Source: a virus (taxonomy: Duplodnaviria > Caudoviricetes). Taken from it: a stretch of DNA of 64,000 bases. A program made the translations under genes and the position numbers. Position 1 is the stretch's first letter. The number at the start of each line of letters is the position of its first letter. Below the pieces are notes generated by a model. That model made no database searches, had not been told where the DNA came from, and was given only the letters and a program-made list of their open reading frames with translations. This document shows, in pieces, positions 36,141 to 50,154 of the stretch. The stretch covers positions 192,001 to 256,000 of the IMG/VR virus record IMGVR_UViG_3300002307_000018; one strand, 5' to 3'.

Positions 36141-36470
36141 ATGACCAATACAACCGTTATTACAATAACCAGACCCAACACTAGTGTCAATTTTTTCTAT
36201 GACAGTATATACTGGTATACCGCACATTACAAAGTTTCACCAGTATATTCTGACTTTTGCAATCAGGGAAAAATTCTTAGTCTAGATAAGAATCTTAGTA
36301 CTGATGAATTGACAAGTACTAGAACGATTATTTTTTCTAACTCAGCCGCAAAAGATGAGTTTGGCACATTGATGTGTCAAGCACTTGGACTGTCTGTTGA
36401 TGAGTTTATGAAGGTTAGACAAGAGTATTGCGATACATCTGGCCATACCATAAACATTATCGAATTATAA
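36141..36470 (+). CDS. hypothetical protein
   Basis: AGGAG SD; MTNTTVITITRPNTSVNFF. Confidence 0.75.
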   Translation: MTNTTVITITRPNTSVNFFYDSIYWYTAHYKVSPVYSDFCNQGKILSLDKNLSTDELTSTRTIIFSNSAAKDEFGTLMCQALGLSVDEFMKVRQEYCDTSGHTINIIEL

Positions 36471-37067
36471 TTATCGAAATTCCGGCTTTATAGTCACTCG
36501 ACGTACAGCCAAAGTTTTGTTATGTGGGTAAGATATTGCGCTCATGCCGATATCTCCTATCAAATTTGAAATGTACGGCCATTTAACATCGTCTGGAGAC
36601 TTGAGAGTCTGTACGTTTATAAAATCATAGCGTTCACTGATGTACGAATTTGATTTCGAGATAATGTCTTTAGTCTGACCTTTTCTACTTAGATGTTCAG
36701 TATCTCTTATCACGTAATAAAATTCATATCGTTCATCTGATTCTGCATTTCTAATACATTGTTCCATAATTGCGCCAGTCACGGTGATCATTTTTTTACC
36801 GTAGAACATGTTGCCGCTGGTCATTAAAAATAGATTGGTCAACGTCCAAACAGGCATGGTGACCCAAAAGAACTGAGAACATATACCCATGCACTCGTCA
36901 TCAATGAATGCCCCAACCGCATATGAGTTTTCAATATTACTTATATATCTTTGAATATAAATGTCATGTTGAATCGGAACCCCGTACATTGTATCGTGTT
37001 TGTAAACACAATTCTCAATGATGTCTAGATCGGCCATTGTTAAATTTCTGACAGAAATTTCACTCAT
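36471..37067 (-). CDS. GNAT-fold-like protein
   Basis: VRNLTMADL...AVGAFIDDECMGIC strand pattern. Confidence 0.45.
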   Translation of the reverse strand: MSEISVRNLTMADLDIIENCVYKHDTMYGVPIQHDIYIQRYISNIENSYAVGAFIDDECMGICSQFFWVTMPVWTLTNLFLMTSGNMFYGKKMITVTGAIMEQCIRNAESDERYEFYYVIRDTEHLSRKGQTKDIISKSNSYISERYDFINVQTLKSPDDVKWPYISNLIGDIGMSAISYPHNKTLAVRRVTIKPEFR

Positions 37068-37702
37068 TTTATAATATAGTCACTATATTTTTTATAACTT
37101 TCATCTAACAACTCTAGATGTCTGGCTTCGTCGAGTACTCCACCGCCTATGATAAGGATAATTTTTCTTTTTCCTTCCTTTGGTATAATACTACCATGAG
37201 GCTTTGATCTATTGCTGAATACCCATGTATTGGTGTCTGTTGGATATCTTGGATGCTGATAGGTAGTACATTCTACGTCATTACACATATAAAACGTTTC
37301 GTGATCTTCATTGAGCAAAGAAATTCTATAAGAAGCTGGCTCTAGATGATCTATAGAGTTTTTGCCCATATAGTCAGTATGAGGCTTAACATCAATGATC
37401 TGTTCGAGCAAATACACACAGACCATTGATGTAAATGGCAAACTCTCTACTGCCTGAACCACTTCTGGGAATATCTTCTTAAAGTCTGGTCTCCATCCGC
37501 TACCGGGTATTTCGCCGGGCGTCTCTGGTATCAGCGGTGATTTGATTACAACGTGATTCCAAGGTTGATCAATGTCTGCTGCCCATGGATAGTCTACTCT
37601 GGATCCTCGTTTGTCGATGAATTTTTTTATTTTTTCTGCGTCGCATTGAACCATTGGTACTGCCAACGGCATATATATTACATCTTTAATAAGTTCGTTC
37701 AT
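37064..37702 (-). CDS. 2OG-Fe(II) oxygenase-like protein
   Basis: PHTD ... PHGS ... RK. Confidence 0.65.
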   Translation of the reverse strand: MNELIKDVIYMPLAVPMVQCDAEKIKKFIDKRGSRVDYPWAADIDQPWNHVVIKSPLIPETPGEIPGSGWRPDFKKIFPEVVQAVESLPFTSMVCVYLLEQIIDVKPHTDYMGKNSIDHLEPASYRISLLNEDHETFYMCNDVECTTYQHPRYPTDTNTWVFSNRSKPHGSIIPKEGKRKIILIIGGGVLDEARHLELLDESYKKYSDYIIK

Positions 37703-38445
37703 ACCTTAAACACCTTTTCAATAACCCATGCGTAGATATCTGTCTCATTAGTAACTTTGTAACTATAGTTTTTGGGATCACTGTGATGATTATTATGATG
37801 TCCAGCCCCTGTGAGTACGTTGAGAACTGTACTATTCAACCCAACTGCGTTTTCATTAGTTTTCACCCCAACCTTACCATGAGCAAAAATATTCACAGCG
37901 CAAGTCATCAGATACCACATTGCACTTCCAGCAACGATGAAATAAAACAAATAGAAACTGATAAAATACGTAGTGATCCACAGTGCTGTCCACAACAACC
38001 AGTAGTACTTGTTTTCAAATATAAAGTATGCTTTGTTTTTGGAACGTATGAGATCAGCAATCACTGATATTTTATAATCTTGTCTAGGAAACAAACCAAG
38101 AATCAACTTCCATGCAGGAATAAACAAAGGACTGTGTGGGTCTTGCTCAGTGTCCTCGTATGCGTGATGGCATCGATGCACTGCCACCCACGATAGCGTT
38201 GCTCCTTGACCAGTCAAAAATGCAAAGAACAGTAGTACTTTTTCTTTCATTGGAGTAGTCTTGTATGTTTTATGAGACAAATAGCGATGTATCGATATCT
38301 CGCTAATACAGCCAAAGAAGTAGCTGGCAGCTATAATAACAAATACAGTGTAAACATCAAAAAAAAGTACCGTTGCTGACCAAAACAGTATTTGATTAGT
38401 CCATACAACGAATAGGGTTTGATAATAAGGATGTAGATTCTTCAT
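37699..38445 (-). CDS. membrane fatty acyl desaturase (delta9-like)
   Basis: His boxes HRYLSH, HRCHH, HHNNHH; TM helices. Confidence 0.9.
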   Translation of the reverse strand: MKNLHPYYQTLFVVWTNQILFWSATVLFFDVYTVFVIIAASYFFGCISEISIHRYLSHKTYKTTPMKEKVLLFFAFLTGQGATLSWVAVHRCHHAYEDTEQDPHSPLFIPAWKLILGLFPRQDYKISVIADLIRSKNKAYFIFENKYYWLLWTALWITTYFISFYLFYFIVAGSAMWYLMTCAVNIFAHGKVGVKTNENAVGLNSTVLNVLTGAGHHNNHHSDPKNYSYKVTNETDIYAWVIEKVFKV

Positions 38446-38486
38446 AATGTTATTTAGCTAAGAGCACAGCGAACATAAATATATTT

Positions 38487-39035
38487 ATGGCCTACTGCGA
38501 CTTTATAAACTTCAACTACAGTGGTGAGAAAATCATTGAATTTCTTCCTCAAATCATTTCATTGAATCCCAAATTTGCAAAAAACGTGTATAGCTGCGGA
38601 CCTGATTTTACCAAGAAAATTGAATCGATTTTGAATCTGAAAAATTTTGATAGAATTTTGTACTTTGTTATGCCACCCAAGCATAAAAGTAGAATTCACA
38701 TTGACATGAACACTGAAACTAAGCAAGTTCAAAAAATATCATTTAATCTGCCATTAACTCAGTGCAGTAGTGTGGTCATGAATTGGTACAGTAAAAATCC
38801 CAATGCACCAATCGGTCAGAATCTAGGATCACATATGTCATCGTTTCCTGTACTAGAGCTAAGCGACTCGACATTGTTGTCAACGTACGAGTTAAATCGT
38901 CCAATGATTGCAACAGTAGATTCGTGGCACAATGTTGAAAATCATAATGAAACGGGTTACGATGAACATTTTATTAGCATTAGATTTCCTCTAGAAACGA
39001 CATACGAGGATATCTTAGAAATGATACCGCAATAG
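38487..39035 (+). CDS. 2OG-Fe(II) oxygenase-like protein
   Basis: IHID ... DSWHNV ... SIR. Confidence 0.7.
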   Translation: MAYCDFINFNYSGEKIIEFLPQIISLNPKFAKNVYSCGPDFTKKIESILNLKNFDRILYFVMPPKHKSRIHIDMNTETKQVQKISFNLPLTQCSSVVMNWYSKNPNAPIGQNLGSHMSSFPVLELSDSTLLSTYELNRPMIATVDSWHNVENHNETGYDEHFISIRFPLETTYEDILEMIPQ

Positions 39036-39123
39036 ATCGATCTATTAGGTCATCAAGCGCATTTTAGTTTTGTTTTTATGCAAGACAGTGTATGCGTATA
39101 AATAATAAAAACGGAGCATATTT

Positions 39124-39789
39124 ATGCATATGATATCAAACGATGGCTCACTGAGTGGCTGGGCTAAGAAGATTGAAGCCGAGATTCTGGCTTATCCACG
39201 TGATTGGTTTTGGCCACGTGATGCTAATCACAAGATTTTTGAGCAGGCAAAAATGATATTCATGAATCGTAATCTAAATTACTTTCATGTGGGTAACATG
39301 GTCGCAGCAGTATGCGAGGGTGATGAGTACAATCCCAATCTAGAAATGACTAGAAAGTTCTGTGGTTACAGTAGAACTCTGAGTGGCGATACTGGCCCAT
39401 TTGGTCGTATGTGTACTTGGAATTTGCAAGCTAATAAAGCACTGTTGCCGCACGTAGATGCGTACAAATATCACTTTAACATTGTTAGAAACATATTCAT
39501 TGTCAGTGGAAACAATAGTAGCGAAGTAACTATCAACATCAATGACGAGAATGTTGAAGTAAAACAGGGCACACTATTTCAGTTTAGCCCAGCAACCGAA
39601 CGTCATGCGTTTGTCAATACTAGTAGCGTTCCATTTTATTTTCTTGGCTATGACTTTTGGATTCCGGGAAAACTTAAAGAGCTAATGAAAGACAGTAAGT
39701 CAATCGTCGCTCTTATGAATAATCAAGAAAGACTAACAAAATTTGACAACCCAAAAGTTACTAATCACAAATACATTTCAAAGCACTAA
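39124..39789 (+). CDS. 2OG-Fe(II) oxygenase (AspH-like)
   Basis: PHVD ... RHAFVN; TATAAATA upstream. Confidence 0.65.
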   Translation: MHMISNDGSLSGWAKKIEAEILAYPRDWFWPRDANHKIFEQAKMIFMNRNLNYFHVGNMVAAVCEGDEYNPNLEMTRKFCGYSRTLSGDTGPFGRMCTWNLQANKALLPHVDAYKYHFNIVRNIFIVSGNNSSEVTININDENVEVKQGTLFQFSPATERHAFVNTSSVPFYFLGYDFWIPGKLKELMKDSKSIVALMNNQERLTKFDNPKVTNHKYISKH

Positions 39790-40358
39790 TAGTCAACAGT
39801 ATAGGAAATGATGTAACGATCACACTCAGTAGACAATGACTCAACTGAATGAGTCAATGATGTATTTAATAAGTATACATCATGATCTTGCATGACGTAC
39901 GATTGATCCCCGACACAAGTTCTACCCGTATTTGAATTCTTAAGACCAATGTTCAGTGTTAAACTGCGAGTTGAGTCTATGTGAGCAAGAACCGTACATC
40001 CTCTTTGCTGCTTAATAATACCAATTCTTTCAGAGTTGACATTATGTTTTAAAAAACGATCTAACAAACTATTTGAATTGATCATTGTTCGTCTGACATG
40101 ATATTTCAATAGTATGAGATTGTTGACAATTGAGTCGCACTCCTTTGGTAGATTTATATATACATTTCTAGCAAATCTAATGTCAGATGGAAGGTAACGT
40201 TGCCAATGCAATTCTCCCGTAGGAGAATGATACACTCTAGGATTGTTTGGATCATTGGGATCGCTAAGATCACCGCCAATTTTCGATATCATACTGTCAA
40301 TATCAAAGTCAAACTTAAAGTCAGTTGATAGTTTAAAGAATCCGTCAAACATTGTCAA
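39786..40358 (-). CDS. 2OG-Fe(II) oxygenase-like protein
   Basis: AHID ... LNTSLTHSV ... RYIIS. Confidence 0.7.
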   Translation of the reverse strand: MTMFDGFFKLSTDFKFDFDIDSMISKIGGDLSDPNDPNNPRVYHSPTGELHWQRYLPSDIRFARNVYINLPKECDSIVNNLILLKYHVRRTMINSNSLLDRFLKHNVNSERIGIIKQQRGCTVLAHIDSTRSLTLNIGLKNSNTGRTCVGDQSYVMQDHDVYLLNTSLTHSVESLSTECDRYIISYTVDY

Positions 40359-40990
40359 ATTCCGAATAGTATACGCTTAGCATCTGCAAAATACATTTTG
40401 TGCGGTTCTTTAAACCGTAACGTTAACATTACTCGCATGTTAGATGATTGGCTATTGTTCCAATCGTGAAATATTTCAGTATTGAACAGTATACACTCAC
40501 CCTGCTTAGCAGTCATTGATTTAAGTGGCACATGCTTTCCTCTGACAAATCCTCTGGCTTCTCTAGAGCGGCCGTTTATAGTGTCGATGGGATATATAGA
40601 CAAGTCTTTATCGTCATACCAGCTAGTCACGCATTTGTCATCATTGATTTGTACACTGTAGTTAATGCCGCATCTGACCGCCAAACCATCTTTATGAGGT
40701 CTGTAAATACATCTGGGCGCAGATATAAAGAACGATACTCGTGTATCATCAACATTGAGTGCGTCACGCATTGGCACATTTTCTAGTAACTTTTGTCCAG
40801 ATGATTGATCTAGCTTATAATGTACAAATGACTTGCGACCATTTTTATCAAGATAGGTTGATGGTTGTTCATCAATCATTTTTTGATAGTCATAATGTTC
40901 AGATGAACAGTGCTCAAATACTTGTTCGATACCAGAATAAGTGAATCTTATATAGTATGGACTACAGTCCTCGATAATATTATAAATCAT
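40355..40990 (-). CDS. 2OG-Fe(II) oxygenase-like protein
   Basis: PHKD ... FNTEIFHD ... R. Confidence 0.7.
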   Translation of the reverse strand: MIYNIIEDCSPYYIRFTYSGIEQVFEHCSSEHYDYQKMIDEQPSTYLDKNGRKSFVHYKLDQSSGQKLLENVPMRDALNVDDTRVSFFISAPRCIYRPHKDGLAVRCGINYSVQINDDKCVTSWYDDKDLSIYPIDTINGRSREARGFVRGKHVPLKSMTAKQGECILFNTEIFHDWNNSQSSNMRVMLTLRFKEPHKMYFADAKRILFGI

Positions 40991-42495
40991 AGTTTTGCCA
41001 GTTGATCAAAATAATCAGTATATCTAGCCAAATTTAAACTTTTAAGTTCAACCCAGTCAATATCTTTGATTGGCGTCTTTAACAAAAACTCTTTACTGTA
41101 ACCAAGAGACATCATTGTACCCAAATTCCATATACTGATCTTTCTATAATTGGTTGTTTTGTTATGTGTAAAAATTTGCTGAGTTACTGCCATGGCTCGT
41201 TTCTCAGTCCAAGTTTCGTTGCTCCATCTATTTTGTTCATCAAACGAAAAACCATACTTACTTGCGTTCTTATCAAACTCACTTTGTATTGTGTATTTGG
41301 TATTTTTATTGTTGTTTCCGAACAATCCCAGTTTATGAAACACCACTGTGTATAGATCATTGTCTTGTACCCATCGCTGAGTATTCCACAAATCTTGCTC
41401 TGTTTCTTTGGGTAAACCAACAATGAAACTCAATGTCATTGGAATCTTAGATTCCCATAGATCATGATATAGCTTTGGTATATACTCTCTTGCATGTTTT
41501 CCCGACCATGCTTTACCTACTAGATTACTAGCGTATGGGTGTAAACTTTCTAAACCGTGAAATGCTCCAAACAATCCGCTGTCTTTGAGCAAGTAAGCAG
41601 TGTCTGGAAATCTGTCAATCAAGTCTGCACGTAAGTACGCACTATATGTAATTTTAAATGGTAAACTTTGAACCATGTCATTGAATGCTCTAAGCTTTAT
41701 TTCGGTGTCATTGAACGTATCATCTAGTATCATGTAGTTGTTGGTACCAAACTTGGCATAGTTATCTAGCATTTCTTCTTTGATATATTCCATGCCACGA
41801 ATGTAATCTAACTTACCCTTGCCTAAGTGAGGGTACTGACAGAATCTGCAAGCAAAGATACAGCCACGACTGATATCTAATGGCAAGGGTTCATTTTTCA
41901 AAACAACATCACTTTCATTCCATTTGAAATCATCGTGTTCGATATTGTACTTGGGATTTCTAGCAGTGTCGTACATCATTCTGAACTTGGGATTTTCTAT
42001 TGAGTTTAACCCATAGTAATTAGTATGCAACTTGCCTAGTGGTAGTTGAGTTCCTTTTTTATAATGATCTAGATACTCTAAGAAGATATCCTCACACGCA
42101 TTGGTATAACTCATAACAGTAGCGTGTGGTATACCGCCCATGTACAAGTGATCAGAGCCGTATCCTCCTATTACAAACTTTATATTGGGATACTCTCGCT
42201 TAATTCTAAGACCCACATCAATGATATGCTTAGGAAACGAAGATAATCTACCATCAGGCCACTTGTGCATCTTGAATGCCATGAACGTAGCTGATACACC
42301 TATTACTGTGGTGTCACTCGTGATAAATTTCTTAGTGTACGTATACAGTTGCTCTTCGGACATATGAACAATAAAGTCAATGACTTGAGCACTATAGCCG
42401 TGCTTACGAATCCAGTGAGCAAGTTTATAGGGACCAATGTATCTAGTAAAATAGTTCCAATCTTGTGGGTCTGAATTCCAAAAAATAACGTCCAA
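40987..42495 (-). CDS. B12-binding-domain radical SAM enzyme
   Basis: N-terminal B12-like domain; SRGCIFACRFC; LDDTFN; FIVGLP. Confidence 0.88.
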   Translation of the reverse strand: MDVIFWNSDPQDWNYFTRYIGPYKLAHWIRKHGYSAQVIDFIVHMSEEQLYTYTKKFITSDTTVIGVSATFMAFKMHKWPDGRLSSFPKHIIDVGLRIKREYPNIKFVIGGYGSDHLYMGGIPHATVMSYTNACEDIFLEYLDHYKKGTQLPLGKLHTNYYGLNSIENPKFRMMYDTARNPKYNIEHDDFKWNESDVVLKNEPLPLDISRGCIFACRFCQYPHLGKGKLDYIRGMEYIKEEMLDNYAKFGTNNYMILDDTFNDTEIKLRAFNDMVQSLPFKITYSAYLRADLIDRFPDTAYLLKDSGLFGAFHGLESLHPYASNLVGKAWSGKHAREYIPKLYHDLWESKIPMTLSFIVGLPKETEQDLWNTQRWVQDNDLYTVVFHKLGLFGNNNKNTKYTIQSEFDKNASKYGFSFDEQNRWSNETWTEKRAMAVTQQIFTHNKTTNYRKISIWNLGTMMSLGYSKEFLLKTPIKDIDWVELKSLNLARYTDYFDQLAKL

Positions 42496-42570
42496 CTTAT
42501 TGTCTCCAAGTAAAAATATTTATCACTAGCTGTAATCTTTTATAAATATTAGCACACATAAGGTTAAGCA

Positions 42571-43521
42571 ATGTATATCACGCATGAAAATCATTTCAAA
42601 TTTGGATGGGGAAGTGGTCTTTATAACTTTGAAGATCAGACCGAAGAGTACTGGGCCAAATTTGGTCGTGCTGCTTATATACCAATCTCATTTAGAGCAG
42701 AGTGTATCAGAGCAGCCGAACTAATCGGTAAGCACAGTGAGAGTCCCATTATGATTTGTTTTAGTGGGGGTCTAAGCAGCGAGATAGTTGTAAAATCTTT
42801 TCTAGAAGCGGAAGTTCCATTTGAAGTAGTGATTATGAAACTTAACTTTGACAACGAAGATAATATCAACTACTATGATACCAAGTACGCAGTTGATTTT
42901 TGTCGTGATCACGACATTAACGTTAACTATATAACTGTTGATCTGATTGATTTTTTCAGAAACGTGTTGCCTGATTTAGCTCGACACTATAAAACTAATA
43001 ACTGGGAAACATTGTTACACATACAAATGATTAAACAATTTCCCAAACATCATCTTGTTATGGGCGGCGGAGATATGAATCTACGTCGTCATCGTAATTA
43101 CGGCCGTAACAAACTTGAAGGACTATTCATCGAAGAAGAATTGGTCTCTATTGCTGCAATCGAAACCGCACGAGAAGTGGGTGCCACCGGAGTGTCCTCT
43201 CGCTTCTTTTTTCATACACCCGAACTAATGCTAGCATGGTTACTAGACAATGATGTTAGTCATTGGATCAAGTACGAGGCTGCCGTGTTTAACAAGTTTG
43301 TTAATATGAATCACTGGGCCATTAAGCCATATACATTGTATCGTCATTGGCCCGATTGTGTTATTCGCTCTAAAGTTACGGGAAATGAACGTGCAATGGC
43401 TAAGATGAGTCAGTCCAGCGAGCATAGAGACATCAAATTATTTTTAGAGAATCTTAACATATACAAACGAGCAGAAGTAATCATTGACTATAAAGACTTA
43501 ATGTACTGGTTGAATCCGTGA
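42571..43521 (+). CDS. PP-loop-like protein, degenerate motif (paralog of 47701-48621)
   Basis: CFSGGLSSEIV instead of SGG.DS. Confidence 0.7.
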   Translation: MYITHENHFKFGWGSGLYNFEDQTEEYWAKFGRAAYIPISFRAECIRAAELIGKHSESPIMICFSGGLSSEIVVKSFLEAEVPFEVVIMKLNFDNEDNINYYDTKYAVDFCRDHDINVNYITVDLIDFFRNVLPDLARHYKTNNWETLLHIQMIKQFPKHHLVMGGGDMNLRRHRNYGRNKLEGLFIEEELVSIAAIETAREVGATGVSSRFFFHTPELMLAWLLDNDVSHWIKYEAAVFNKFVNMNHWAIKPYTLYRHWPDCVIRSKVTGNERAMAKMSQSSEHRDIKLFLENLNIYKRAEVIIDYKDLMYWLNP

Positions 43522-44099
43522 TAGTTAACGCAATCAATCATCATGACAGTAGTTTGAACCAGCCAATGACTGCACTGATTGACCCTGATGATCATGGTAA
43601 ATGGGCAGTTAGATATGTTTGGATTCAACACACAGACAATACACAGTTCTTATCCAACTACTTTAAAGATGGTAATACCAAAAACGTTAACGTACGTGCA
43701 ATGACTACTCATATCGGCGGAGACTGGCGATATCATAATAAAATATTTGAGTTAGGTGCCAAGAATGGAGACTTAGTATGGCGTGTTAAAGTGCTAAACA
43801 CAATTAGCAACAGCATTGACTATATTGAAGTATGGCGTAACAAGGACTTAATTAACGATTACTTTAACGATCATGATAGCAATAGCGTGTTGACTGATGG
43901 ATCTATTTGGGTCAGTGCAAGCAAAAAGAACTTGTCACGTGAAATTTTCAATACAGGATTCATTACCAGAACTTGGATTCCACCCATGAATATCTCTTGC
44001 TTACAAGCTATCAATTACTATACTGATTTTGTTACCAAGTCATCAAAGCACGACAACTGCATTATTAACACTAAATTCAACTCAACGCTTTATCTTTGA
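43518..44099 (+). CDS. hypothetical protein
   Basis: GTGA overlap within operon. Confidence 0.65.
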   Translation: MIVNAINHHDSSLNQPMTALIDPDDHGKWAVRYVWIQHTDNTQFLSNYFKDGNTKNVNVRAMTTHIGGDWRYHNKIFELGAKNGDLVWRVKVLNTISNSIDYIEVWRNKDLINDYFNDHDSNSVLTDGSIWVSASKKNLSREIFNTGFITRTWIPPMNISCLQAINYYTDFVTKSSKHDNCIINTKFNSTLYL

Positions 44100-44965
44100 C
44101 AATAAACACACTTATGAAAATTACAAACATATACAGTAGTTGGGGCAGCTATATTGACTTATCACTTGAAGAATTACTAAGTCATGACCAGCCTTTTTGG
44201 CAAAAGTTAATCTTTGAACGTAACATACTGGTGTTCAGAGGGTTACCAACGAATCTATCAGATGATGCGTTGTTTGATTTAAGCAAGCAATTTGGTAAAG
44301 TATGGACAAAAGAGATTTACAAATTACCATTCATTAGTCGTGGTAATGATAAAACAGTGAATGCTACTGCAGTGAAGCCCGTTAGTCATTTCAAAGCTGG
44401 TAATAATTACTTCTCACGTAAGCCAATGCATTATCATGCTGATATGGTTCACGTCAATGAGTATAGTTATCCTGGCAGAGCACTGTACATGTTTCAGAAT
44501 TCATTTGATAAGTCTGGAGTCACTACTTGGCTCAATCTAGAGTTAGGTTGGGCGCAGTGTACTGAAGAAGAGAAACGCTCATTCGATGGCTATACAGTGA
44601 TCATGCAGGACATGTACTTAGCTGGCACTAGAATGGAAAAGTTTCCATTTCTTAAAACTAATCCCAAGACCGGCAAGATAAGTCCATTGGTAAATTGCTG
44701 TTATCTAGGTGACCCAGATAAAAATCGTGCATGGATACATCACGTAGAAAAAGATGGCGTTGCATTATCGTATGAGGATACGTTAACGTTTGTATACAAT
44801 GTATATGAACTAATGGAAAGTAAGCCTAACACAATGTATGAACATGTCTGGACTGATGGCGATCTAATTGTGTACGATAATTGGTTCAATGTTCACAGAC
44901 GAACAGTAGTAAATGACTCTGCCGACAGCGAAAGAGTTTTAAAAAGAACAACTTTTAATTTTTAA
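44096..44965 (+). CDS. TauD/TfdA-family dioxygenase
   Basis: YHAD, HVWTDGDLIVYDNWFNVHRR, R.LKR. Confidence 0.85.
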   Translation: MTINTLMKITNIYSSWGSYIDLSLEELLSHDQPFWQKLIFERNILVFRGLPTNLSDDALFDLSKQFGKVWTKEIYKLPFISRGNDKTVNATAVKPVSHFKAGNNYFSRKPMHYHADMVHVNEYSYPGRALYMFQNSFDKSGVTTWLNLELGWAQCTEEEKRSFDGYTVIMQDMYLAGTRMEKFPFLKTNPKTGKISPLVNCCYLGDPDKNRAWIHHVEKDGVALSYEDTLTFVYNVYELMESKPNTMYEHVWTDGDLIVYDNWFNVHRRTVVNDSADSERVLKRTTFNF

Positions 44966-45718
44966 TCAATCTAACACTGCATCTTTAACATCTGCACGAA
45001 ACTTCCCGTCAATTCTAACTGAGAATGTTAAACGATTGACGGGATCAGTTCCATGATAGTCCATTTCATTGAACCAAACAAACTTCTTACTTTGATCAGT
45101 ATAGTGCTTTTCTTTAGTATCACCATCAAGCACATAGATACGCTTATAACGATTGCTGGTAGTGAACCATATGAAATCGTCATTGAGTCTATCAGGCACA
45201 TCTAGCGAGTCATCATAGTGTGGTATTGTTTCATTATTAGGCTCAGTGATAAAGAACATAACACGCCCAATCTCTTCAAAAGGTAGTTGATTGATCAAGC
45301 TGACAAGTTGTGGGAAATGAACTGAGTGTGGAGTCCAGTCGCAGTCTGCTGCTATTGACTTGTTAGACATTCTACGTGCGTCTACTACACGATTCAAACG
45401 TAAGAACACAGTCCAGAACGGATGCAGTGCGGGAGTCACCAATGATGTATACTTGATGCGCTGCTCTGTATTTGCAGCAGGTATCTTGTTATAGTACTCT
45501 AACTCACCACTGGTGAATATCTTGTTACGAGCATAGGTGGTAATCTCTTTGTCGCTCCACTCACTGTGTACACCAGCACTTACATAGCGTTTGATCCATG
45601 GTATCTGCGATAGACCATAGCACGTCTCGTTGTGTAATGCTTCCCAGTCTACAGTAGGGCAATACTCGTCTAGATATTTGAACGGGTGTTTGTCTGCACC
45701 AAGTCCTTTGATTGTCAT
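44966..45718 (-). CDS. 2OG-Fe(II) oxygenase-like protein
   Basis: PHYD ... DYHG ... SVRIDG. Confidence 0.7.
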   Translation of the reverse strand: MTIKGLGADKHPFKYLDEYCPTVDWEALHNETCYGLSQIPWIKRYVSAGVHSEWSDKEITTYARNKIFTSGELEYYNKIPAANTEQRIKYTSLVTPALHPFWTVFLRLNRVVDARRMSNKSIAADCDWTPHSVHFPQLVSLINQLPFEEIGRVMFFITEPNNETIPHYDDSLDVPDRLNDDFIWFTTSNRYKRIYVLDGDTKEKHYTDQSKKFVWFNEMDYHGTDPVNRLTFSVRIDGKFRADVKDAVLD

Positions 45719-46323
45719 ATATTATCTTTTATGATGTTGCTAAAGCTAGAGCGTTCTAACGATTCTAGAATAGTTGGCAGTGTGGGATAGTTTCTGAACT
45801 TAGTTTGAATAATTATTCTAGGCTCAGTACCGTTACATTTGAAACTATGATAGTTGTCTACATCTAGTGCGTATACGTCCCCCACTTCTGTATGAAGTTC
45901 TTCTATAAATGGAATTTGCTCGTACTCACGAATACTACAATTTCTAGAATAGCCAAGATTATAGGTACTAGTAATACTATTATCTAAGCTGTTGATTAGA
46001 TCATGATCATACCAACGTACCCAATCATCAGGATTACAACTGATTGCAATGTTCAATGCGCTGTTGCACTGTAGTCCGTCTCTATGAATTTTATAGCCAT
46101 GATCGGGTGAACTGTAAAACGCCTTTTGAATATAGCGTTGCTTGTCTGGATCAAATTGTACTTCTAATTCCCGATTGGTAAATATCTTGAAGAATGCGTC
46201 ATTGAGAGTTTTGTCAAAATGAATCCATTGATAGTCACTATCGGGTACTTTGCGTTTTAATATTTCATGCTTAAAGTACTCGATTGTTTCTAGTGGTAGT
46301 TTGCCAAGTTTTTTATATTTCAT
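45715..46323 (-). CDS. 2OG-Fe(II) oxygenase-like protein
   Basis: IHRD ... DNYHSF ... R. Confidence 0.7.
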   Translation of the reverse strand: MKYKKLGKLPLETIEYFKHEILKRKVPDSDYQWIHFDKTLNDAFFKIFTNRELEVQFDPDKQRYIQKAFYSSPDHGYKIHRDGLQCNSALNIAISCNPDDWVRWYDHDLINSLDNSITSTYNLGYSRNCSIREYEQIPFIEELHTEVGDVYALDVDNYHSFKCNGTEPRIIIQTKFRNYPTLPTILESLERSSFSNIIKDNI

Positions 46324-47132
46324 TTTAGTAGTGGTAAAAATATTTTGCTGGGATCATACTCCCACCATTTGCCTGATACGCTAGTTCCAAAGTCATAACT
46401 ACCGGGAGATTGATGATGATTGTTGTGCCAGCCCTGCCCCCAGCATAGATATCCTAAAAGAAGATTATTATGCGACTGATCCTTGGTTTCAAAGTTGCGA
46501 TACCCAAACCAACCTTTGATATGTCCATATACATTGACCAAGTTGTCTTGTGTAGACCCGATCAGAGTGACTAACCAAAATGCACACAATGCCAGCTTCC
46601 AATCAAACAGTGCTACAAGTGCCGGAACACCCCATAAAATATGCAGTGAGTGCTTGTGAAACCATACATGATTTGGCTTGCGTAGTAAATCAACTGCGTA
46701 CTTGAAGTTGACTGTGTTATTAGACTCGGTGACTTTAAGATACCAACCTACAAACGCATTGAATTTACCATAGTACACAGGTGAGTGCAAGTCTTGTGCT
46801 TTATCGCTGTGTGGGTGATGATAGCCACGATGTAGTGCTACCCAGAAGATTGATCCGCCCTGACCTGCAAACGTAGCAAAGAAAAGAATAATGTTTTCTT
46901 TCCATGTGGGTAGAGTGTGCGTCTTATGCGAGAATACTCTGTGATAGCCAACAGCAATACCAAGCCCACATACCAGTATCCACATGACGAACGTAGCCCA
47001 TAGATAGTATACTGGTATAACGCCCATAGCAAGCAATACAATTGCTAGTGTTCCAAAGAGTACTGCTGGTACCCATTGAAAGTAAAATGACTTAGAGATA
47101 GTGGTTAGATATTTGTTTAACTGTTCAATCAT
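46320..47132 (-). CDS. membrane fatty acyl desaturase (delta9-like)
   Basis: HRVFSH, HRGYHH, WHNNHH. Confidence 0.92.
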   Translation of the reverse strand: MIEQLNKYLTTISKSFYFQWVPAVLFGTLAIVLLAMGVIPVYYLWATFVMWILVCGLGIAVGYHRVFSHKTHTLPTWKENIILFFATFAGQGGSIFWVALHRGYHHPHSDKAQDLHSPVYYGKFNAFVGWYLKVTESNNTVNFKYAVDLLRKPNHVWFHKHSLHILWGVPALVALFDWKLALCAFWLVTLIGSTQDNLVNVYGHIKGWFGYRNFETKDQSHNNLLLGYLCWGQGWHNNHHQSPGSYDFGTSVSGKWWEYDPSKIFLPLLK

Positions 47133-47701
47133 ATATTTCCGCCAATTGGAAGAGTAGTTCTGTATTCTTGCTTTAAATAGTTACAACGCACTACTGATGG
47201 ATCACTGATTAGATAACGTTTGTACAATAGTTCCCAAGCATTGACATAGTAGCATTTATGCTGCGCTGGTACCGTATATTCATCAAAGTAACCATAGCGT
47301 TCATCATTGTATTTACTCCACAAAAATCTACGTAATAGCTTACTATGATTCTCTTGTACTAGTGTGTAAAACTTTAATCGTCCCGCTGCTTCTTGAACAG
47401 AAATGATCTCATCTAATACACGCTTAAGCGTGTGACCTGCACTGTTTGCACGATACAGTGTCATGTACCAAGCAGGCTCTTCCGTGCTTTCGTAGATTGA
47501 AATCATTGATTTGACTTCATCGTTTTCTACGTAACCATAAGCGTGAAAGTTCTTTAAATCGCTTAAGTAGTTATTGCAAAATATTTTATACACGTGCGAG
47601 TTAAAGTAAGTATCTTCGATTTCCCGCCCCATATACTTTTTACTCTCAAACAAGTTTCTAACTTGATTAACGTGAGTTTCGTTTAATTTTACTATCGACA
47701 T
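47129..47701 (-). CDS. GNAT-fold-like protein (related to 36471-37067)
   Basis: similar layout; shared ERY(E/G)(F/Y) stretch. Confidence 0.45.
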   Translation of the reverse strand: MSIVKLNETHVNQVRNLFESKKYMGREIEDTYFNSHVYKIFCNNYLSDLKNFHAYGYVENDEVKSMISIYESTEEPAWYMTLYRANSAGHTLKRVLDEIISVQEAAGRLKFYTLVQENHSKLLRRFLWSKYNDERYGYFDEYTVPAQHKCYYVNAWELLYKRYLISDPSVVRCNYLKQEYRTTLPIGGNI

Positions 47702-48621
47702 TAACTTTCCCCGAATAAATGTGCTTGTAGATCATCTACGAATATACCGTCTAAGCTAGACTCTAACCGTTTAACATGACTCTTATATAGTTCTGCGTAA
47801 GTTTCGCCGTTGAAACCCAGTAGTCTTTCGTAACCATGTGTCTTACGCTTTTCCAATAAGTCTGGCATATACTGATGTAGTATGGTGTTTTTTGATGACA
47901 CTGAGCTTAGCTTGTAGTTGTAGCGTTCACTGAATAACCAACGAATTTTTGGATGCTCTAAGTAGTAGCCCATCATTTCAGGTGTATACGAGAACCATTC
48001 ATTGACCAATGGTATCTCATACTTGTTTGAGAATCGCATTGCGCTTGCATCTTCGTTCTCACGTATGCAGTAGTACCAACGACTACCCGCACGATCAACA
48101 TGACGCTTGAACAACATTTCTCCGCCCATAACAGCCGGTGTTTGTAACTTGCGAATGTGATGATACACAGTTAAGTATGCCATTTGACGACACTGTATCT
48201 CTGATGCAAACTCCCATGCTTGACCACTGTGATAAAAGTCTTTGACATCAAACTCAATAACATCAATCTTGATGTCCATATCTTGAGCAATCTTTTCTGC
48301 CATATACAAATCAGAAATGTTGTAATCATCTTTGAACTTTATAAACAGTGCTCGTGGAGTTACACCAATGTGCTTGAATGCTCTAAGAACAATTTCACTG
48401 TCAGTACCACCGCTGAACATCACCATAAGGTCTTTACCAAATTCTTGATAGATTGCATCAGCAGTACGATACTGTTCGTTTAGCCAATCACTTGTTTTGT
48501 AATATGCTTTGTCAATTTGACCGCAAGTAACGTTATACTTTTCAATAGGAGTTTCTCTGTATCCATACAGTCGATCTCCGATTGTATATTTTAAATGATT
48601 GTTCAGTGTAAAATTGGTCAT
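47701..48621 (-). CDS. PP-loop (asparagine synthase/AANH-like) protein
   Basis: MFSGGTDSEIV; KRKTHGYE. Confidence 0.78.
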   Translation of the reverse strand: MTNFTLNNHLKYTIGDRLYGYRETPIEKYNVTCGQIDKAYYKTSDWLNEQYRTADAIYQEFGKDLMVMFSGGTDSEIVLRAFKHIGVTPRALFIKFKDDYNISDLYMAEKIAQDMDIKIDVIEFDVKDFYHSGQAWEFASEIQCRQMAYLTVYHHIRKLQTPAVMGGEMLFKRHVDRAGSRWYYCIRENEDASAMRFSNKYEIPLVNEWFSYTPEMMGYYLEHPKIRWLFSERYNYKLSSVSSKNTILHQYMPDLLEKRKTHGYERLLGFNGETYAELYKSHVKRLESSLDGIFVDDLQAHLFGES

Positions 48622-48622
48622 G

Positions 48623-48838
48623 TTACATTACGGCGATTAAGTCTCGTACCGTCATTACTGCACGTGAATCGTCCAACTGTACATCATGTTCTTCTTCATA
48701 GTATAGTTGCAACTCAACTGCGTCTAAGCTGTCTATACCCAAATCTAATAGATTGTCATCTAGATTCAGTGTAAGGTCTTTATCGAACAATGTTTTGATT
48801 GCTGCTTCTAAAAATTTAATTTTGTCTTGCTCTGTCAT
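48623..48838 (-). CDS. acpP: acyl carrier protein
   Basis: DLGIDSLDAVEL phosphopantetheine motif, acidic, about 71 aa. Confidence 0.88.
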   Translation of the reverse strand: MTEQDKIKFLEAAIKTLFDKDLTLNLDDNLLDLGIDSLDAVELQLYYEEEHDVQLDDSRAVMTVRDLIAVM

Positions 48839-49386
48839 TTGTTTTCCTTTGTGTACTCTGCTACCCATTGTGGCGTATAATACACTGTATGTTTACCTAT
48901 GGGCTTGAATTGCTTATATATATCTGGCCAGTCATTGAATAATGTAGCACGTTGTCCACGTTGAACTCTTTCAAAGTAATTGTAAATGGCCTTGTTATGA
49001 TCATTTGCAGTTATCCAAATACGTTCATAGTGCTGTGCTTCTGTCATCACCTGCGGCAGTATGTGTTTGCCTATGATAAACTGATTGCGATACTCAAGTG
49101 CAATGTACATTCTGGATAACACTATTGCTACAGTTGGATCAAGATCGTATTCATTCCAACCAAGACTACACATATACTTATCAGCATCGTCAGTGACAAC
49201 AAAATATTTCCCGTGTCCCTGTCTGAATCTGCCGCTGTTGAGTACATAAAACAAATTTGCTGAATTGTCGCTGTAGTCTGGATGATAGTTCTTGGCGTAT
49301 GCTGAGTTATTTGTGCGAGATAAACCGTGTTTAAGTACGTCAATCACTGTAGTGTTTGACGTATCGTGGATTTCATGTATCTTCAT
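48835..49386 (-). CDS. GNAT-fold-like protein
   Basis: YFVVTDDADKYMCSLGW...LSRMYIALEYRNQ. Confidence 0.5.
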   Translation of the reverse strand: MKIHEIHDTSNTTVIDVLKHGLSRTNNSAYAKNYHPDYSDNSANLFYVLNSGRFRQGHGKYFVVTDDADKYMCSLGWNEYDLDPTVAIVLSRMYIALEYRNQFIIGKHILPQVMTEAQHYERIWITANDHNKAIYNYFERVQRGQRATLFNDWPDIYKQFKPIGKHTVYYTPQWVAEYTKENK

Positions 49387-50057
49387 TTGTTCTGTGCGTA
49401 AAAAATGTGATGTCCAATAACAAAAGATTTCTTATACGGCCACTGTGGTTTTACCGTGTGGTTGTGAAAGAATAAAATGTTATCTTGAAATTCATCACTC
49501 CACTTATCTTCGGTAAGAACCAAATGAGAAATCTCTTCAGCTATCTTGTATCGTTCGCTAGTAACATCAGGTGATTTTTTACCCTGACATACCCAACTGA
49601 ATTGACAATGAATGCTTGTCTTATCTGTATTTGGATCCACTCGTTTAGTGGTTTGATAAATGACTAGACACGGACTAGATGCAAAGCCGCCATGACGCAC
49701 ACGATTCATCACTACTCTAGCAACAGCAACTTGACCCATATAGGGTTCGCCACCTGCTTCGTAATAAATGTTATGAGCCATGCACTTGATTTGCTCTTTA
49801 AGTGCCTTTAACTTTTTCTCTTCTACCAAAGTAGGAAGAGGGTCTGGCAATGCGATTGGTTGAATAATTTCAACTGTCTCTGCAACTTTCACTTCGATCT
49901 TTGGTATTTCAACTGCAGGCACATTGAATGGTATTTCATGTGTTACAGTGGTTACGTTGTATATATCGTTATTATAGTTTGTCAGTGACCCTATTACTAG
50001 TAAAGTTGGTATGATCGTGCATAATAAGATTAGTTTTAGCCTGCTTGATTTAAGCAT
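49383..50057 (-). CDS. SleB-like cell wall hydrolase (Hydrolase_2)
   Basis: N-terminal TM; CMAHNIYYEAGGE...VVMNRV...CQFSW. Confidence 0.88.
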   Translation of the reverse strand: MLKSSRLKLILLCTIIPTLLVIGSLTNYNNDIYNVTTVTHEIPFNVPAVEIPKIEVKVAETVEIIQPIALPDPLPTLVEEKKLKALKEQIKCMAHNIYYEAGGEPYMGQVAVARVVMNRVRHGGFASSPCLVIYQTTKRVDPNTDKTSIHCQFSWVCQGKKSPDVTSERYKIAEEISHLVLTEDKWSDEFQDNILFFHNHTVKPQWPYKKSFVIGHHIFYAQNK

Positions 50058-50154
50058 ATTATTCTCCTTTCTTAATACGTGAGCATAACGCACGTTAATA
50101 ATTTATCATAATTCACTACGCAAAGTATGACTCTTTTTCTAACGGCTGTTATGC

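What the first reader, a model, noticed from the sequence alone, without database searches (positions are those of the whole stretch)
36141..49386. Phage-encoded ACP / desaturase / GNAT / PP-loop / oxygenase island resembling an acyl-modifying biosynthetic cluster
Seen: an ACP with intact DSL motif adjacent to a PP-loop enzyme, two GNAT-like genes and a desaturase (46320-49386). A second desaturase + oxygenase + GNAT-like module lies at 36471-38445. The island also has a TauD, seven other 2OG-Fe(II)-type genes, a B12 radical SAM and a second PP-loop paralog. Known: PP-loop enzymes adenylate carboxylates to form amides, GNATs can transfer acyl groups from ACP, and desaturases and 2OG enzymes tailor acyl chains. 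Inference: a pathway making or attaching modified acyl groups (lipid remodelling, acylated virion proteins or a small molecule). No PPTase or ketosynthase is in the window, so it would rely on host fatty acid synthesis.
Basis: partly seen in the sequence, partly recalled or inferred. Interest (0 to 1): 0.8.

Follow-up and report, generated by a model that had tools for sequence, protein, structure and literature searches.

The report
Phage acyl-carrier, desaturase, acyltransferase operon
A giant freshwater phage and dozens of uncultivated relatives carry a tightly packed operon (an ATP-using PP-loop enzyme, two acyltransferases, an acyl carrier protein and a membrane fatty-acid desaturase) that probably makes or attaches a modified fatty-acyl group during infection. 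Its product is unknown, and I found no description of such a phage pathway.

Summary
The 13-kb "island" is not one unit, though. The conserved unit is an operon at 44966-50093 (- strand) whose genes overlap by 1-4 nt.

In 34 non-redundant viral contigs, three genes are always adjacent:
- a virus-specific PP-loop ATPase;
- a new GNAT-fold protein (GNAT2);
- an SCD1-type membrane desaturase with all nine His ligands.

A second new GNAT (GNAT1) is present in 29/34 and a FAS-type ACP in 21/34. GNAT1 and the ACP are fused into one protein in three divergent lineages. Asp/Asn-hydroxylase-like 2OG oxygenases, B12 radical-SAM enzymes and extra PP-loop or desaturase paralogs vary from phage to phage, like tailoring enzymes.

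The 264-kb record encodes no PPTase, ketosynthase, ferredoxin or PlsC, so the pathway depends on the host.

Best reading (about 0.5): a carrier-protein-templated pathway that tailors a fatty-acyl chain and N-acylates an acceptor. Its logic is closest to the JamABC/polyyne "ligase + ACP + membrane desaturase" cassettes, with a PP-loop enzyme in place of the ANL ligase and GNATs as off-loaders. Acceptor, product and the PP-loop's exact step are inferred, not shown.

Verdict: a new variant of a known kind, of moderate-to-high interest.

The parts
49383..50093 (-). Cell-wall hydrolase (Hydrolase_2 / endolysin-like). It is the first gene of the overlapping run. It lies upstream of the cassette in 7 of 12 relatives, at variable distance, and is probably not part of the pathway.
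   Evidence: Pfam PF07486 2.7e-21; PHROG endolysin; synteny; 4-nt overlap with the next gene.
48835..49386 (-). GNAT1: a new GNAT-fold acyltransferase family (183 aa) seen only in viral or metagenomic contigs. It is fused to the ACP in three lineages.
48623..48838 (-). Acyl carrier protein, FAS type II-like (71 aa from the internal Met; the ORF could start at 48868).
   Evidence: PF00550 33 bits. DSLD invariant. The top 60 PDB matches of the profile are all AcpP or mitochondrial ACPs. Present in 21 of 34 lineages.
47701..48621 (-). PP-loop ATP pyrophosphatase of a virus-specific, unassigned family (306 aa). It has SGGTDSE and a near-invariant Cys144.
   Evidence: motifs. 617 representative clusters. 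Atlas clusters are 93-96% viral. The profile matches only the N-terminal HUP domain of NadE, MnmA, QueC and LarE. Members hit QueC 32/61, Asn_synthase 22/61 and NAD_synthase 12/61. It lies directly upstream of GNAT2 in 47 of 47 loci.
47129..47701 (-). GNAT2: a second new GNAT-fold family (190 aa), always paired with the PP-loop gene.
46320..47132 (-). Membrane di-iron desaturase of the SCD1/DesC (delta-9) type (270 aa).
   Evidence: PF00487. Best PDB matches are human and mouse SCD1, at 2e-11. The His boxes HRVFSH / HRGYHH / HNNHH plus N200-x3-H204 are conserved in 13 phage sequences. Hydrophobic stretches consistent with membrane spans. More than 1500 90%-identity clusters. Adjacent to PP-loop/GNAT2 in every non-truncated locus.
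45715..46323 (-). Asp/Asn-hydroxylase-like 2OG/DSBH oxygenase (202 aa), overlapping the desaturase stop codon.
   Evidence: Paralog of 40355-40990. Atlas features point to viral Asp_Arg_Hydrox clusters. HxD...H...R pattern. An orthologue is nearby in 6 of 12 loci. A DSBH-type gene directly follows the desaturase in many loci.
44966..45718 (-). Asp/Asn-hydroxylase-like oxygenase (250 aa), the last gene of the overlapping run.
   Evidence: Atlas structure TM 0.55-0.59 to viral Asp_Arg_Hydrox clusters; weak Pfam hit.
44096..44965 (+). TauD/TfdA-family 2OG dioxygenase (variable neighbour).
   Evidence: PF02668 2.8e-13; a homologue in only 1 of 12 loci.
42571..43521 (+). Second PP-loop paralog (316 aa) with a degenerate SGGLSSE motif.
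   Evidence: 25% identity to 47701-48621, phmmer 1.5e-17; HMM 2.9e-35; sequence.
40987..42495 (-). B12-binding (class B) radical SAM enzyme (variable neighbour).
   Evidence: PF04055 5.6e-14. NCBIfam PhpK-family 5.6e-22 and lipid B12-rSAM 2.7e-14, all below the equivalog cut-offs. CxxxCxxC is present.
39786..40990 (-). Two Asp/Asn-hydroxylase-like oxygenases (190 and 211 aa).
   Evidence: PF05118 at 26 bits, above cut-off, and at 17.9 bits. Homologues of the 190-aa protein follow the desaturase in 5 loci.
39124..39789 (+). Cupin-like protein (221 aa).
   Evidence: Cupin_2 3.2e-4; hhalign to the DSBH profile E 0.005; homologues at 43-49% identity in 3 loci.
36471..38445 (-). Partial second module: desaturase paralog (37699-38445), an unknown 212-aa protein (37064-37702) and a weak GNAT2 paralog (36471-37067).
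   Evidence: PF00487 2e-13; the two desaturases are 28% identical; GNAT2 paralogy is weak; no support for the 212-aa protein being an oxygenase.

Best explanation
**What it is.** The finding contains one real functional unit: a co-transcribed phage operon. Its invariant core is a virus-specific PP-loop ATPase, a new GNAT-fold acyltransferase (GNAT2) and an SCD1-type membrane desaturase. This core is usually preceded by a second new GNAT (GNAT1) and a FAS-type acyl carrier protein, and is often followed by Asp/Asn-hydroxylase-like 2OG oxygenases.

**How it most likely works.** It is a carrier-protein-templated fatty-acyl tailoring and transfer pathway that runs on host supplies.
1. Host AcpS makes the phage ACP holo (inferred).
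2. A fatty-acyl chain reaches the ACP, or the host ACP in lineages that lack a phage ACP. It comes either from host FASII or through the PP-loop enzyme adenylating a free acid (inferred).
3. The membrane desaturase introduces a double bond. This reaction class is supported by the conserved metal ligands. The substrate form is inferred.
4. GNAT1 and GNAT2 move the acyl group from the thioester to amine acceptor(s). The fold is supported and the link to the ACP is supported by fusions. The acceptor is unknown.
5. The PP-loop enzyme does the ATP-dependent activation of a carboxylate, either amide formation on the head group or ACP loading (inferred).
6. The variable oxygenases and radical SAM enzymes decorate the product.

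The product would be a modified N-acyl lipid, lipo-amino compound or acylated macromolecule made in the infected cell.
For: - **Gene order.** Gene order is conserved in 47 viral loci (34 non-redundant) at 35-66% GNAT2 identity. PP-loop sits directly upstream of GNAT2 in 47 of 47. The desaturase is adjacent in all non-truncated loci and in two different arrangements (PP-G2-DES and DES-PP-G2), which argues for selection on the linkage.
- **Translational coupling.** Seven consecutive gene junctions have spacings of -4, -4, +1, -1, -4, -4 and -4 nt.
- **Fusions.** GNAT1 and the ACP are fused in three proteins that are only 49-53% identical to each other.
- **Catalytic motifs are kept.** The ACP keeps DSLD. 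The PP-loop keeps SGGxDSE and Cys144. The desaturase keeps nine His plus Asn.
- **ACP type.** The ACP profile matches only FAS-type ACPs in the PDB.
- **Fold.** Both small proteins are GNAT folds.
- **Paralogs.** PP-loop, GNAT2 and desaturase paralogs recur together in the same island.
- **Host dependence.** The 264-kb record has no PPTase, ketosynthase, ferredoxin or PlsC.
- **Precedents.**
  - Ligase + dedicated ACP + membrane desaturase cassettes: JamABC (bioRxiv 10.1101/291195) and the polyyne cay/pgn clusters (PMC9828172).
  - A carrier-protein-dependent GNAT, SbzI (PMC11685415).
  - Active phage delta-9 desaturases (PMC5776448).
Against: - No product, substrate or acceptor is identified.
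- The ACP is missing from 13 of 34 lineages and GNAT1 from 5, so the thiotemplate is not obligatory.
- The PP-loop family cannot be assigned to any characterised family. Only its N-terminal nucleotide-binding part aligns, and PP-loop enzymes are not known to load carrier proteins.
- The PP-loop/ACP complex prediction gave no verdict.
- Structural neighbours of both GNATs are generic small-molecule or protein acetyltransferases. No long-chain-specific relative stands out.
- No RNA run was listed, so there is no expression evidence.
- The record is only about 74% complete, so absent genes could lie in the missing part.
Confidence: 0.5

Rival explanations
1. The acceptor is a protein or peptide. 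The cassette lipidates or otherwise acylates a phage or host protein, or a ribosomal peptide. The Asp/Asn beta-hydroxylase-like oxygenases, the B12 radical SAM enzyme and the Asn-synthase-like PP-loop would then act as peptide-tailoring enzymes (RiPP-like logic).
For: - Asp_Arg_Hydrox-type oxygenases, class B radical SAM enzymes and Asn-synthase-like PP-loop enzymes are typical peptide tailoring enzymes (my knowledge of RiPP pathways).
- The closest structural neighbours of both GNATs include the protein N-terminal acetyltransferases RimI, Ard1 and Naa.
- 22 of 61 PP-loop family members hit Asn_synthase.
Against: - The operon is gap-free, so it has no room for a precursor-peptide gene.
- No conserved small ORF was seen next to the cassette.
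- The oxygenases and radical SAM enzyme are not conserved with the core.
- The always-present partner is an integral-membrane fatty-acid desaturase.
Confidence: 0.18
2. The desaturase is an ordinary stand-alone auxiliary metabolic gene that adjusts host membrane fluidity, as cyanophage vFADs do. The neighbouring genes do unrelated jobs and are linked only by vertical inheritance in a hyperplastic genome region.
For: - Phage delta-9 desaturases that act alone are documented (PMC5776448).
- The surrounding island is highly variable.
- ACP and GNAT1 are dispensable in some lineages.
Against: - PP-loop, GNAT2 and desaturase stay adjacent in 34 of 34 lineages down to 35% identity, and across a rearrangement.
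- The genes overlap by 1-4 nt.
- The GNAT1-ACP fusions argue for a shared function.
- Paralogs of all three core genes recur in the same island.
Confidence: 0.13
3. This is a nucleic-acid (tRNA or DNA) modification system. The PP-loop enzyme activates a nucleobase, as TilS, MnmA and QueC-type enzymes do, and the GNATs acylate it, as Mom-type enzymes do.
For: - PP-loop family members hit QueC (32/61), the MnmA HUP domain (15/61) and the TilS-type ATP_bind_3 (12/61).
- The island lies 2.5 kb from a 31-tRNA array.
- A family member fused to a GNAT sits in a phage contig that carries aminoacyl-tRNA synthetase genes.
Against: - A FAS-type ACP and an obligatory integral-membrane SCD-type desaturase have no place in nucleic-acid modification.
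- Only the generic nucleotide-binding part of the PP-loop domain matches those families.
- The GNAT domain of the fused protein is not related to GNAT1 or GNAT2.
Confidence: 0.07

Closest known systems
Thiotemplated fatty-acid desaturation cassettes: JamA/JamB/JamC (terminal alkyne) and the cay/pgn polyyne clusters (fatty acyl-AMP ligase + dedicated ACP + membrane desaturases + thioesterase); bioRxiv 10.1101/291195, PMC9828172
   Same: An adenylating enzyme, a dedicated FAS-like ACP and one or more membrane-bound FA_desaturase-family enzymes are clustered together. In those systems the desaturase works on the ACP-tethered chain.
   Different: - Here the ATP-using enzyme is a PP-loop ATPase, not an ANL-family ligase. 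The only ANL gene of the record is about 190 kb away.
- Off-loading would be by GNATs, not by a thioesterase or PKS.
- The ACP is optional (21 of 34 lineages).
- The cassette is phage-encoded.
- Activity on acyl-ACP is untested.
Cyanophage vFAD delta-9 lipid desaturases (PMC5776448)
   Same: Both are phage-encoded DesC/SCD-type membrane desaturases with the three His boxes.
   Different: vFADs are described as an auxiliary gene acting directly on C16 lipid chains. Here the desaturase is always adjacent to a PP-loop ATPase and a GNAT.
Carrier-protein-dependent GNAT acyltransferases (SbzI of altemicidin biosynthesis, PMC11685415). From my own knowledge also the acyl-ACP-dependent N-acyl amino acid synthases, OlsB and bacterial ceramide synthase.
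   Same: They share the GNAT fold and take the acyl donor from a carrier protein. Natural GNAT1-ACP fusions exist here.
   Different: There is no sequence relationship beyond the fold. No Pfam GNAT model is matched. Donor and acceptor are unknown.
PP-loop enzymes that adenylate a carboxylate (NH3-dependent NAD synthetase, QueC, asparagine synthetase B, LarE)
   Same: They share the SGGxDS PP-loop and the N-terminal HUP nucleotide-binding domain. NadE is the best PDB match at 4.5e-6.
   Different: - No family cut-off is reached.
- The C-terminal ~170 residues are unique.
- There is a single conserved Cys (C144) instead of QueC's Zn site.
- The family is 93-96% viral.
Predicted secondary-metabolite gene cluster of jumbo cyanophage S-SSM6a (Iyer et al. 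2021, PMC7824862)
   Same: Both are multi-enzyme, BGC-like clusters in a large phage and include 2OG and cupin hydroxylases.
   Different: That cluster is built on carbamoyltransferases, a halogenase and a methylase, with no ACP, PP-loop or desaturase. This phage has a separate island of that flavour at 46-56 kb of its record.

Membership tests
Type II (FAS-like) acyl carrier protein | PP-binding domain with the conserved DSL serine in a ~75-aa acidic four-helix protein | tested here: met
   PF00550 33 bits against a cut-off of 20.8. D36-S37-L38-D39 is invariant in 11 sequences. The top 60 PDB profile matches are all AcpP-type ACPs.
Type II (FAS-like) acyl carrier protein | Orthology to housekeeping AcpP (NCBIfam equivalog cut-off) | tested here: not met
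   Best score 29.4 bits against a cut-off of 92. It is a divergent, dedicated ACP, not AcpP.
Type II (FAS-like) acyl carrier protein | 4'-phosphopantetheinylation of the serine | not testable with these tools
   No PPTase is found in the 264-kb record, so a host enzyme would be needed.
GNAT superfamily (both 183-aa and 190-aa proteins) | GNAT alpha/beta fold | tested here: met
GNAT superfamily (both 183-aa and 190-aa proteins) | Sequence match to a Pfam GNAT model, and the R/Q-x-x-G-x-G/A pantetheine-pyrophosphate motif | tested here: inconclusive
   The window proteins hit no Pfam GNAT model. Only the L008 fusion gives a weak Acetyltransf_7 hit. GNAT2 has R84-x-x-G87-x-N89 conserved. GNAT1 has no clear motif.
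PP-loop ATP pyrophosphatase superfamily | SGGxDS PP-loop in an N-terminal HUP domain | tested here: met
   SGGTDSE; S70, G72 and S75 are invariant. The profile matches NadE, MnmA, QueC, TtuA and TilS over residues ~51-130.
QueC / asparagine synthase / NAD synthase (specific families) | Score above the family's gathering cut-off over the full domain | tested here: not met
   QueC 17.7 bits against 22. Across 61 family members the hits split among QueC 32, Asn_synthase 22, MnmA HUP 15, ATP_bind_3 12 and NAD_synthase 12. The family is unassigned.
SCD1/DesC-type (delta-9) membrane fatty-acid desaturase | FA_desaturase domain, three His boxes plus the ninth His and Asn ligand, and membrane-spanning hydrophobic stretches | tested here: met
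   PF00487 42.7 bits against 29.7. It aligns with SCD1 at 1.8e-11. H64, H69, H101, H105, H106, H204, H236, H239 and H240 are invariant and N200 is near-invariant. Hydrophobic stretches consistent with membrane spans.
SCD1/DesC-type (delta-9) membrane fatty-acid desaturase | Delta-9 regiospecificity and substrate form (CoA, lipid or ACP) | not testable with these tools
   The NCBIfam DesA equivalog cut-off is not reached, 50 against 400.
JamABC / polyyne-type thiotemplated desaturase cassette | ANL-family fatty acyl-AMP/ACP ligase in the cluster | tested here: not met
   No AMP-binding gene is in the window. The only one in the record is at ~50.5 kb, about 190 kb away. A PP-loop ATPase occupies the corresponding place.
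JamABC / polyyne-type thiotemplated desaturase cassette | Dedicated ACP next to membrane desaturase(s) | tested here: met
   This holds in the window and in 21 of 34 lineages, and is absent in the others.
2OG-Fe(II)/Asp-Asn hydroxylase-like oxygenases (neighbour genes) | HxD...H iron triad and the 2OG-binding Arg | tested here: met
   H126 and D128 are invariant and H170 and R181 near-invariant in 14 aligned island and locus proteins. Only 39786-40358 exceeds the Pfam cut-off.

The most novel reading that the evidence does not exclude
Freshwater jumbo phages encode a lipid natural-product pathway of their own. In it, a virus-specific PP-loop ATPase family acts as a new kind of carboxylate-activating enzyme, either an ACP ligase or an amide synthetase for lipids. 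It works with two phage-only GNAT families and an ACP-linked membrane desaturase to make a novel unsaturated N-acyl compound that alters the infected cell, for example its membrane, signalling or superinfection exclusion.
Probability: 0.28. Interest if true: 0.8.

Novelty: new variant of a known kind. Interest (0 to 1): 0.62.

Why it matters
Phage auxiliary lipid genes known so far are single enzymes, such as the cyanophage desaturases. A conserved multi-enzyme, carrier-protein-based acyl pathway carried by an abundant group of lake phages would be different. The GNAT2 and desaturase families alone have 277 and more than 1500 90%-identity clusters. Such a pathway would mean phages synthesise their own specialised lipids or acylated products during infection.

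It would also give functions to three protein families that are so far unnamed and largely or wholly viral: the PP-loop clade, GNAT1 and GNAT2. It might add a new activating-enzyme type to thiotemplated biosynthesis. The cassette is compact at about 3 kb and could be tested directly by heterologous expression.

Tried and rejected
**Searches that found nothing**
- blastn of the core against 50,697 GenBank phages, and tblastn of the neighbouring 849-aa protein and the PP-loop protein: no match.
- tblastn of the desaturase gave only three distant hits. The "Acinetobacter phage MD-2021a" region looks like bacterial chromosome and told me nothing.
- The search for related loci with the second PP-loop paralog and with P0220 found nothing.
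- The diverse PP-loop alignment A5 was too divergent for a pattern scan.
- A pattern scan with GNAT2 over prokaryote species genomes found no relative.
- No RNA run was listed.

**Tests without a verdict**
- Complex prediction of the PP-loop protein with the ACP scored 0.19 against a mark of 0.32. This is no verdict and is not evidence either way.
- The promoter and terminator scan was at chance level.

**Comparisons that did not narrow things down**
- AFDB-cluster and VIA-wide searches of both GNAT models gave only generic GNATs, with no long-chain- or ACP-specific relative.
- hhalign gave no support for 37064-37702, 38487-39035 or 43518-44099 as DSBH oxygenases.
- hhalign gave no support for the 109-aa ORF at 36141-36470 as a carrier protein.
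- The GNAT domain of the PP-loop-GNAT fusion P0320 is not related to GNAT1 or GNAT2, so that fusion is only weak support.

**Considered and rejected:** treating the whole 13 kb as one cluster. Only the core is syntenic.

Full report
**Context**

The window is bases 192001-256000 of a 264,637-bp IMG/VR virus record, estimated about 74% complete. It carries 31 tRNA genes, nrdA/nrdB, a nicotinamide phosphoribosyltransferase, a PRPP synthetase and an RNA ligase. Near-identical DNA occurs in freshwater and lake metagenomes from 14 studies. This is a large uncultivated freshwater phage. No GenBank phage resembles the region at the DNA level.

**Observation check**

| Coordinates | Assignment |
|---|---|
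| 48623-48868(-) | ACP, PP-binding 33 bits, "LGIDSLDAVEL" |
| 47701-48621(-) | PP-loop protein, "FSGGTDSE" |
| 46320-47132(-), 37699-38445(-) | Two FA_desaturase genes |
| 44096-44965(+) | TauD |
| 40987-42495(-) | B12-class radical SAM with CxxxCxxC |
| 39786-40358(-) | Asp_Arg_Hydrox protein above cut-off |
| 42571-43521(+) | Second PP-loop paralog, motif degenerate (SGGLSSE) |

- **The two "GNAT-like" genes.** They have no Pfam hit. I built alignments from metagenomic homologues and predicted both structures.
  - The 190-aa protein has pLDDT 83.9 and the 183-aa protein 92.5.
  - Foldseek gives 352 and 145 PDB matches at E<=1e-3, and every listed one is a GNAT.
  - Both are therefore GNAT folds that belong to no named family.
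- **The "seven other 2OG genes".**
  - Four Asp/Asn-hydroxylase-like proteins have support. They share an invariant HxD and a near-invariant H and R.
  - One is a weak cupin.
  - Three candidates have no support.
- **The 198-aa protein at 36471-37067.** It is only a weak paralog of the 190-aa GNAT.

**What the conserved unit is**

A first scan with the PP-loop protein found 12 viral contigs. In these, GNAT1, ACP, PP-loop, GNAT2 and desaturase are collinear, while the rest of the island matches only sporadically.

A second scan with the GNAT2 profile found 47 loci. These collapse to 34 lineages at 90% identity and reach down to 35% identity to the window. The gene orders in the 34 lineages are:

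| Gene order | Lineages |
|---|---|
| G1-ACP-PP-G2-DES | 16 (plus one with G1 and ACP fused, and one with G2 duplicated) |
| G1-PP-G2-DES | 9 |
| ACP-PP-G2-DES | 3 |
| DES-PP-G2 | 3 |
| PP-G2-DES (G1 further upstream) | 1 |

- PP-loop, GNAT2 and desaturase are together in 34 of 34 lineages, and in two different arrangements.
- GNAT1 is present in 29 of 34 and the ACP in 21 of 34.
- In the window, eight genes from 50093 down to 44966 have junction spacings of -4, -4, +1, -1, -4, -4 and -4 nt. They form one translationally coupled run.
- GNAT1 and the ACP are one polypeptide in L008, P0200 and P0174. These three are only 49-53% identical to each other and are closer to unfused members.
- The window also holds dispersed paralogs of PP-loop, GNAT2 and desaturase.
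- Genes just downstream of the desaturase vary. They include DSBH oxygenases, a radical SAM enzyme, extra desaturases and extra PP-loop proteins. This is the pattern expected of tailoring enzymes around a fixed core.

**The parts**

- **Desaturase.**
  - It aligns with human and mouse SCD1 at 1.8e-11 and 4.6e-11.
  - Box 1 is HRVFSH, box 2 is HRGYHH and box 3 is HNNHH, and it also has N200-x3-H204. These are the nine-His-plus-Asn ligand set of the SCD1 di-iron centre (ligand assignment from my knowledge of the SCD1 structures).
  - The nine His are invariant and N200 near-invariant across 13 phage sequences, including all paralogs.
  - It has hydrophobic stretches consistent with membrane spans.
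- **ACP.** The top 60 PDB matches of its profile are all FAS-type ACPs, not PCPs or DltC.
- **PP-loop protein.**
  - It belongs to a family of about 617 representative clusters that is 93-96% viral.
  - Only the N-terminal nucleotide-binding part aligns with solved PP-loop enzymes: NadE at 4.5e-6, then MnmA, TtuA, QueC and LarE.
  - Across 61 members the Pfam hits split among QueC, Asn_synthase, MnmA, TilS-type and NAD_synthase models.
  - It has a near-invariant Cys144.
  - A distant member is fused to a generic GNAT. That GNAT is not related to GNAT1 or GNAT2.
- **Distribution.** GNAT2 has 277 homologues and GNAT1 has 85, none of them named, many on large contigs of up to ~300 kb. No GNAT2 relative was found by pattern scan in 185,579 prokaryote species genomes.
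- **Host dependence.** The record has no PPTase, ketosynthase, 2Fe-2S ferredoxin or PlsC acyltransferase.

**Mechanism**

The following are shown:
- a conserved, co-translated gene set;
- intact catalytic motifs;
- GNAT folds;
- a FAS-type carrier protein physically fused to one GNAT in some lineages;
- an SCD-type membrane di-iron enzyme as an obligatory partner.

The following are inferred:
- An acyl chain is carried on the phage ACP, or on the host ACP where the phage has none.
- The chain is desaturated at the membrane.
- GNAT1 and GNAT2 transfer it to amine acceptor(s).
- The PP-loop enzyme supplies the ATP-dependent activation of a carboxylate.

I see two sub-models for the PP-loop step and cannot separate them:
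- **(a) Amide formation on the head group or intermediate.** This is the chemistry of NadE, QueC and AsnB, the families its members most often hit.
- **(b) Adenylation of a free acid and loading onto the ACP thiol.** This would make the cassette a functional analogue of JamA/JamB/JamC and of the polyyne fatty acyl-AMP ligase + ACP + desaturase sets (bioRxiv 10.1101/291195; PMC9828172). LarE offers a PP-loop precedent for thiol attack on an adenylated carboxylate (my knowledge).

The complex prediction for the PP-loop protein with the ACP gave no verdict.

**Rivals**

- **Protein or peptide acceptor (0.18).** It fits the hydroxylase, radical SAM and Asn-synthase-like enzyme types. It lacks a precursor gene, and those enzymes are not conserved with the core.
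- **Independent stand-alone desaturase gene (0.13).** Cyanophage vFADs are a precedent (PMC5776448). The invariant linkage, the gene overlaps and the fusions contradict it.
- **Nucleic-acid modification (0.07).** It fits the PP-loop similarities and the nearby tRNA array. It does not fit a FAS-type ACP or a membrane desaturase.

**Comparison and novelty**

- I could not find this gene combination in 50,697 GenBank phage records, in the papers searched or in the jumbo-phage review PMC7824862. That review describes a different predicted biosynthetic cluster in cyanophage S-SSM6a.
- Each enzyme class is known, and the overall logic resembles known thiotemplated desaturase cassettes.
- What is new:
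  - the phage setting;
  - the PP-loop enzyme in the activating position;
  - two phage-only GNAT families;
  - the breadth of the cassette in lake viromes.
- I rate it a new variant of a known kind, with interest 0.62.
- The same stretch was noted once more by this scan from an overlapping window (e1-5318451), with the same reading.

Noticed in passing
L019:5174-7661 (IMGVR_UViG_3300018420_000021; L020 is identical): Three tandem FA_desaturase paralogs sit in a different viral contig. They are flanked by two TctA transporter genes, a TctC-like binding protein, a Vut_1 (YhhQ-type) transporter and a dCMP deaminase, with a distant PP-loop protein 3 kb away. This recalls the "desaturase triad" of bacterial polyyne clusters (PMC9828172).
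   Followed up: partly
G000:C1:46000-56000 (L022), outside the window: The same phage record has a second biosynthetic-looking island. It holds two radical SAM enzymes, an Asp_Arg_Hydrox oxygenase, a short AMP-binding (ANL) enzyme, a DUF2061 membrane protein and a carbamoyltransferase. The flavour is similar to the cyanophage S-SSM6a cluster described in PMC7824862.
   Followed up: partly
window 42571-43521 (+): The second PP-loop paralog has SGGLSSE instead of SGGxDSE. The Asp that is nearly invariant in the family is replaced, so this copy may have an altered activity or none.
   Followed up: no
window 22974-24107 (-): A 377-aa ORF inside the tRNA array gives a weak match to the PP-loop family profile (E about 3e-4 to 5e-4). 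It may be a third, very distant PP-loop protein.
   Followed up: no
L014:5177-7425 (Logan contig SRR13312978_78171): This phage-like contig carries class I and seryl-tRNA synthetase genes. It has two tandem paralogs of the PP-loop family, and the second is fused to a C-terminal canonical GNAT domain (P0320, 474 aa).
   Followed up: partly
L009:7408-8001, L010:7421-8017: In these cassette lineages the ACP slot between GNAT1 and PP-loop is occupied by a ~198-aa ORF instead; the L010 copy gives a weak Asp_Arg_Hydrox hit, the L009 copy has no Pfam hit.
   Followed up: partly
L038 (IMGVR_UViG_3300020733_000010, 178 kb): This locus has an expanded cassette, G1-ACP-PP-G2-G2-DES-PP-DES. GNAT2, PP-loop and desaturase are duplicated in tandem.
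   Followed up: no
window 36141-36470 (+): This 109-aa ORF of unknown function has 31%-identical homologues in L003 and in L016. In L016 it lies two genes downstream of a distant PP-loop family member. It is not ACP-like by hhalign.
   Followed up: partly
L021 (CAKLQH020000002.1, 'Acinetobacter phage MD-2021a'): The region of this GenBank "phage" record around its desaturase carries trpBC, btuB, baeSR, ugpQ and aidB. It looks like bacterial chromosome rather than phage.
   Followed up: no
window 44965/44966: The + strand gene run (42571-44965) and the - strand operon (44966-50093) converge with no intergenic base between their stop codons. No terminator-like hairpin was found there.
   Followed up: no
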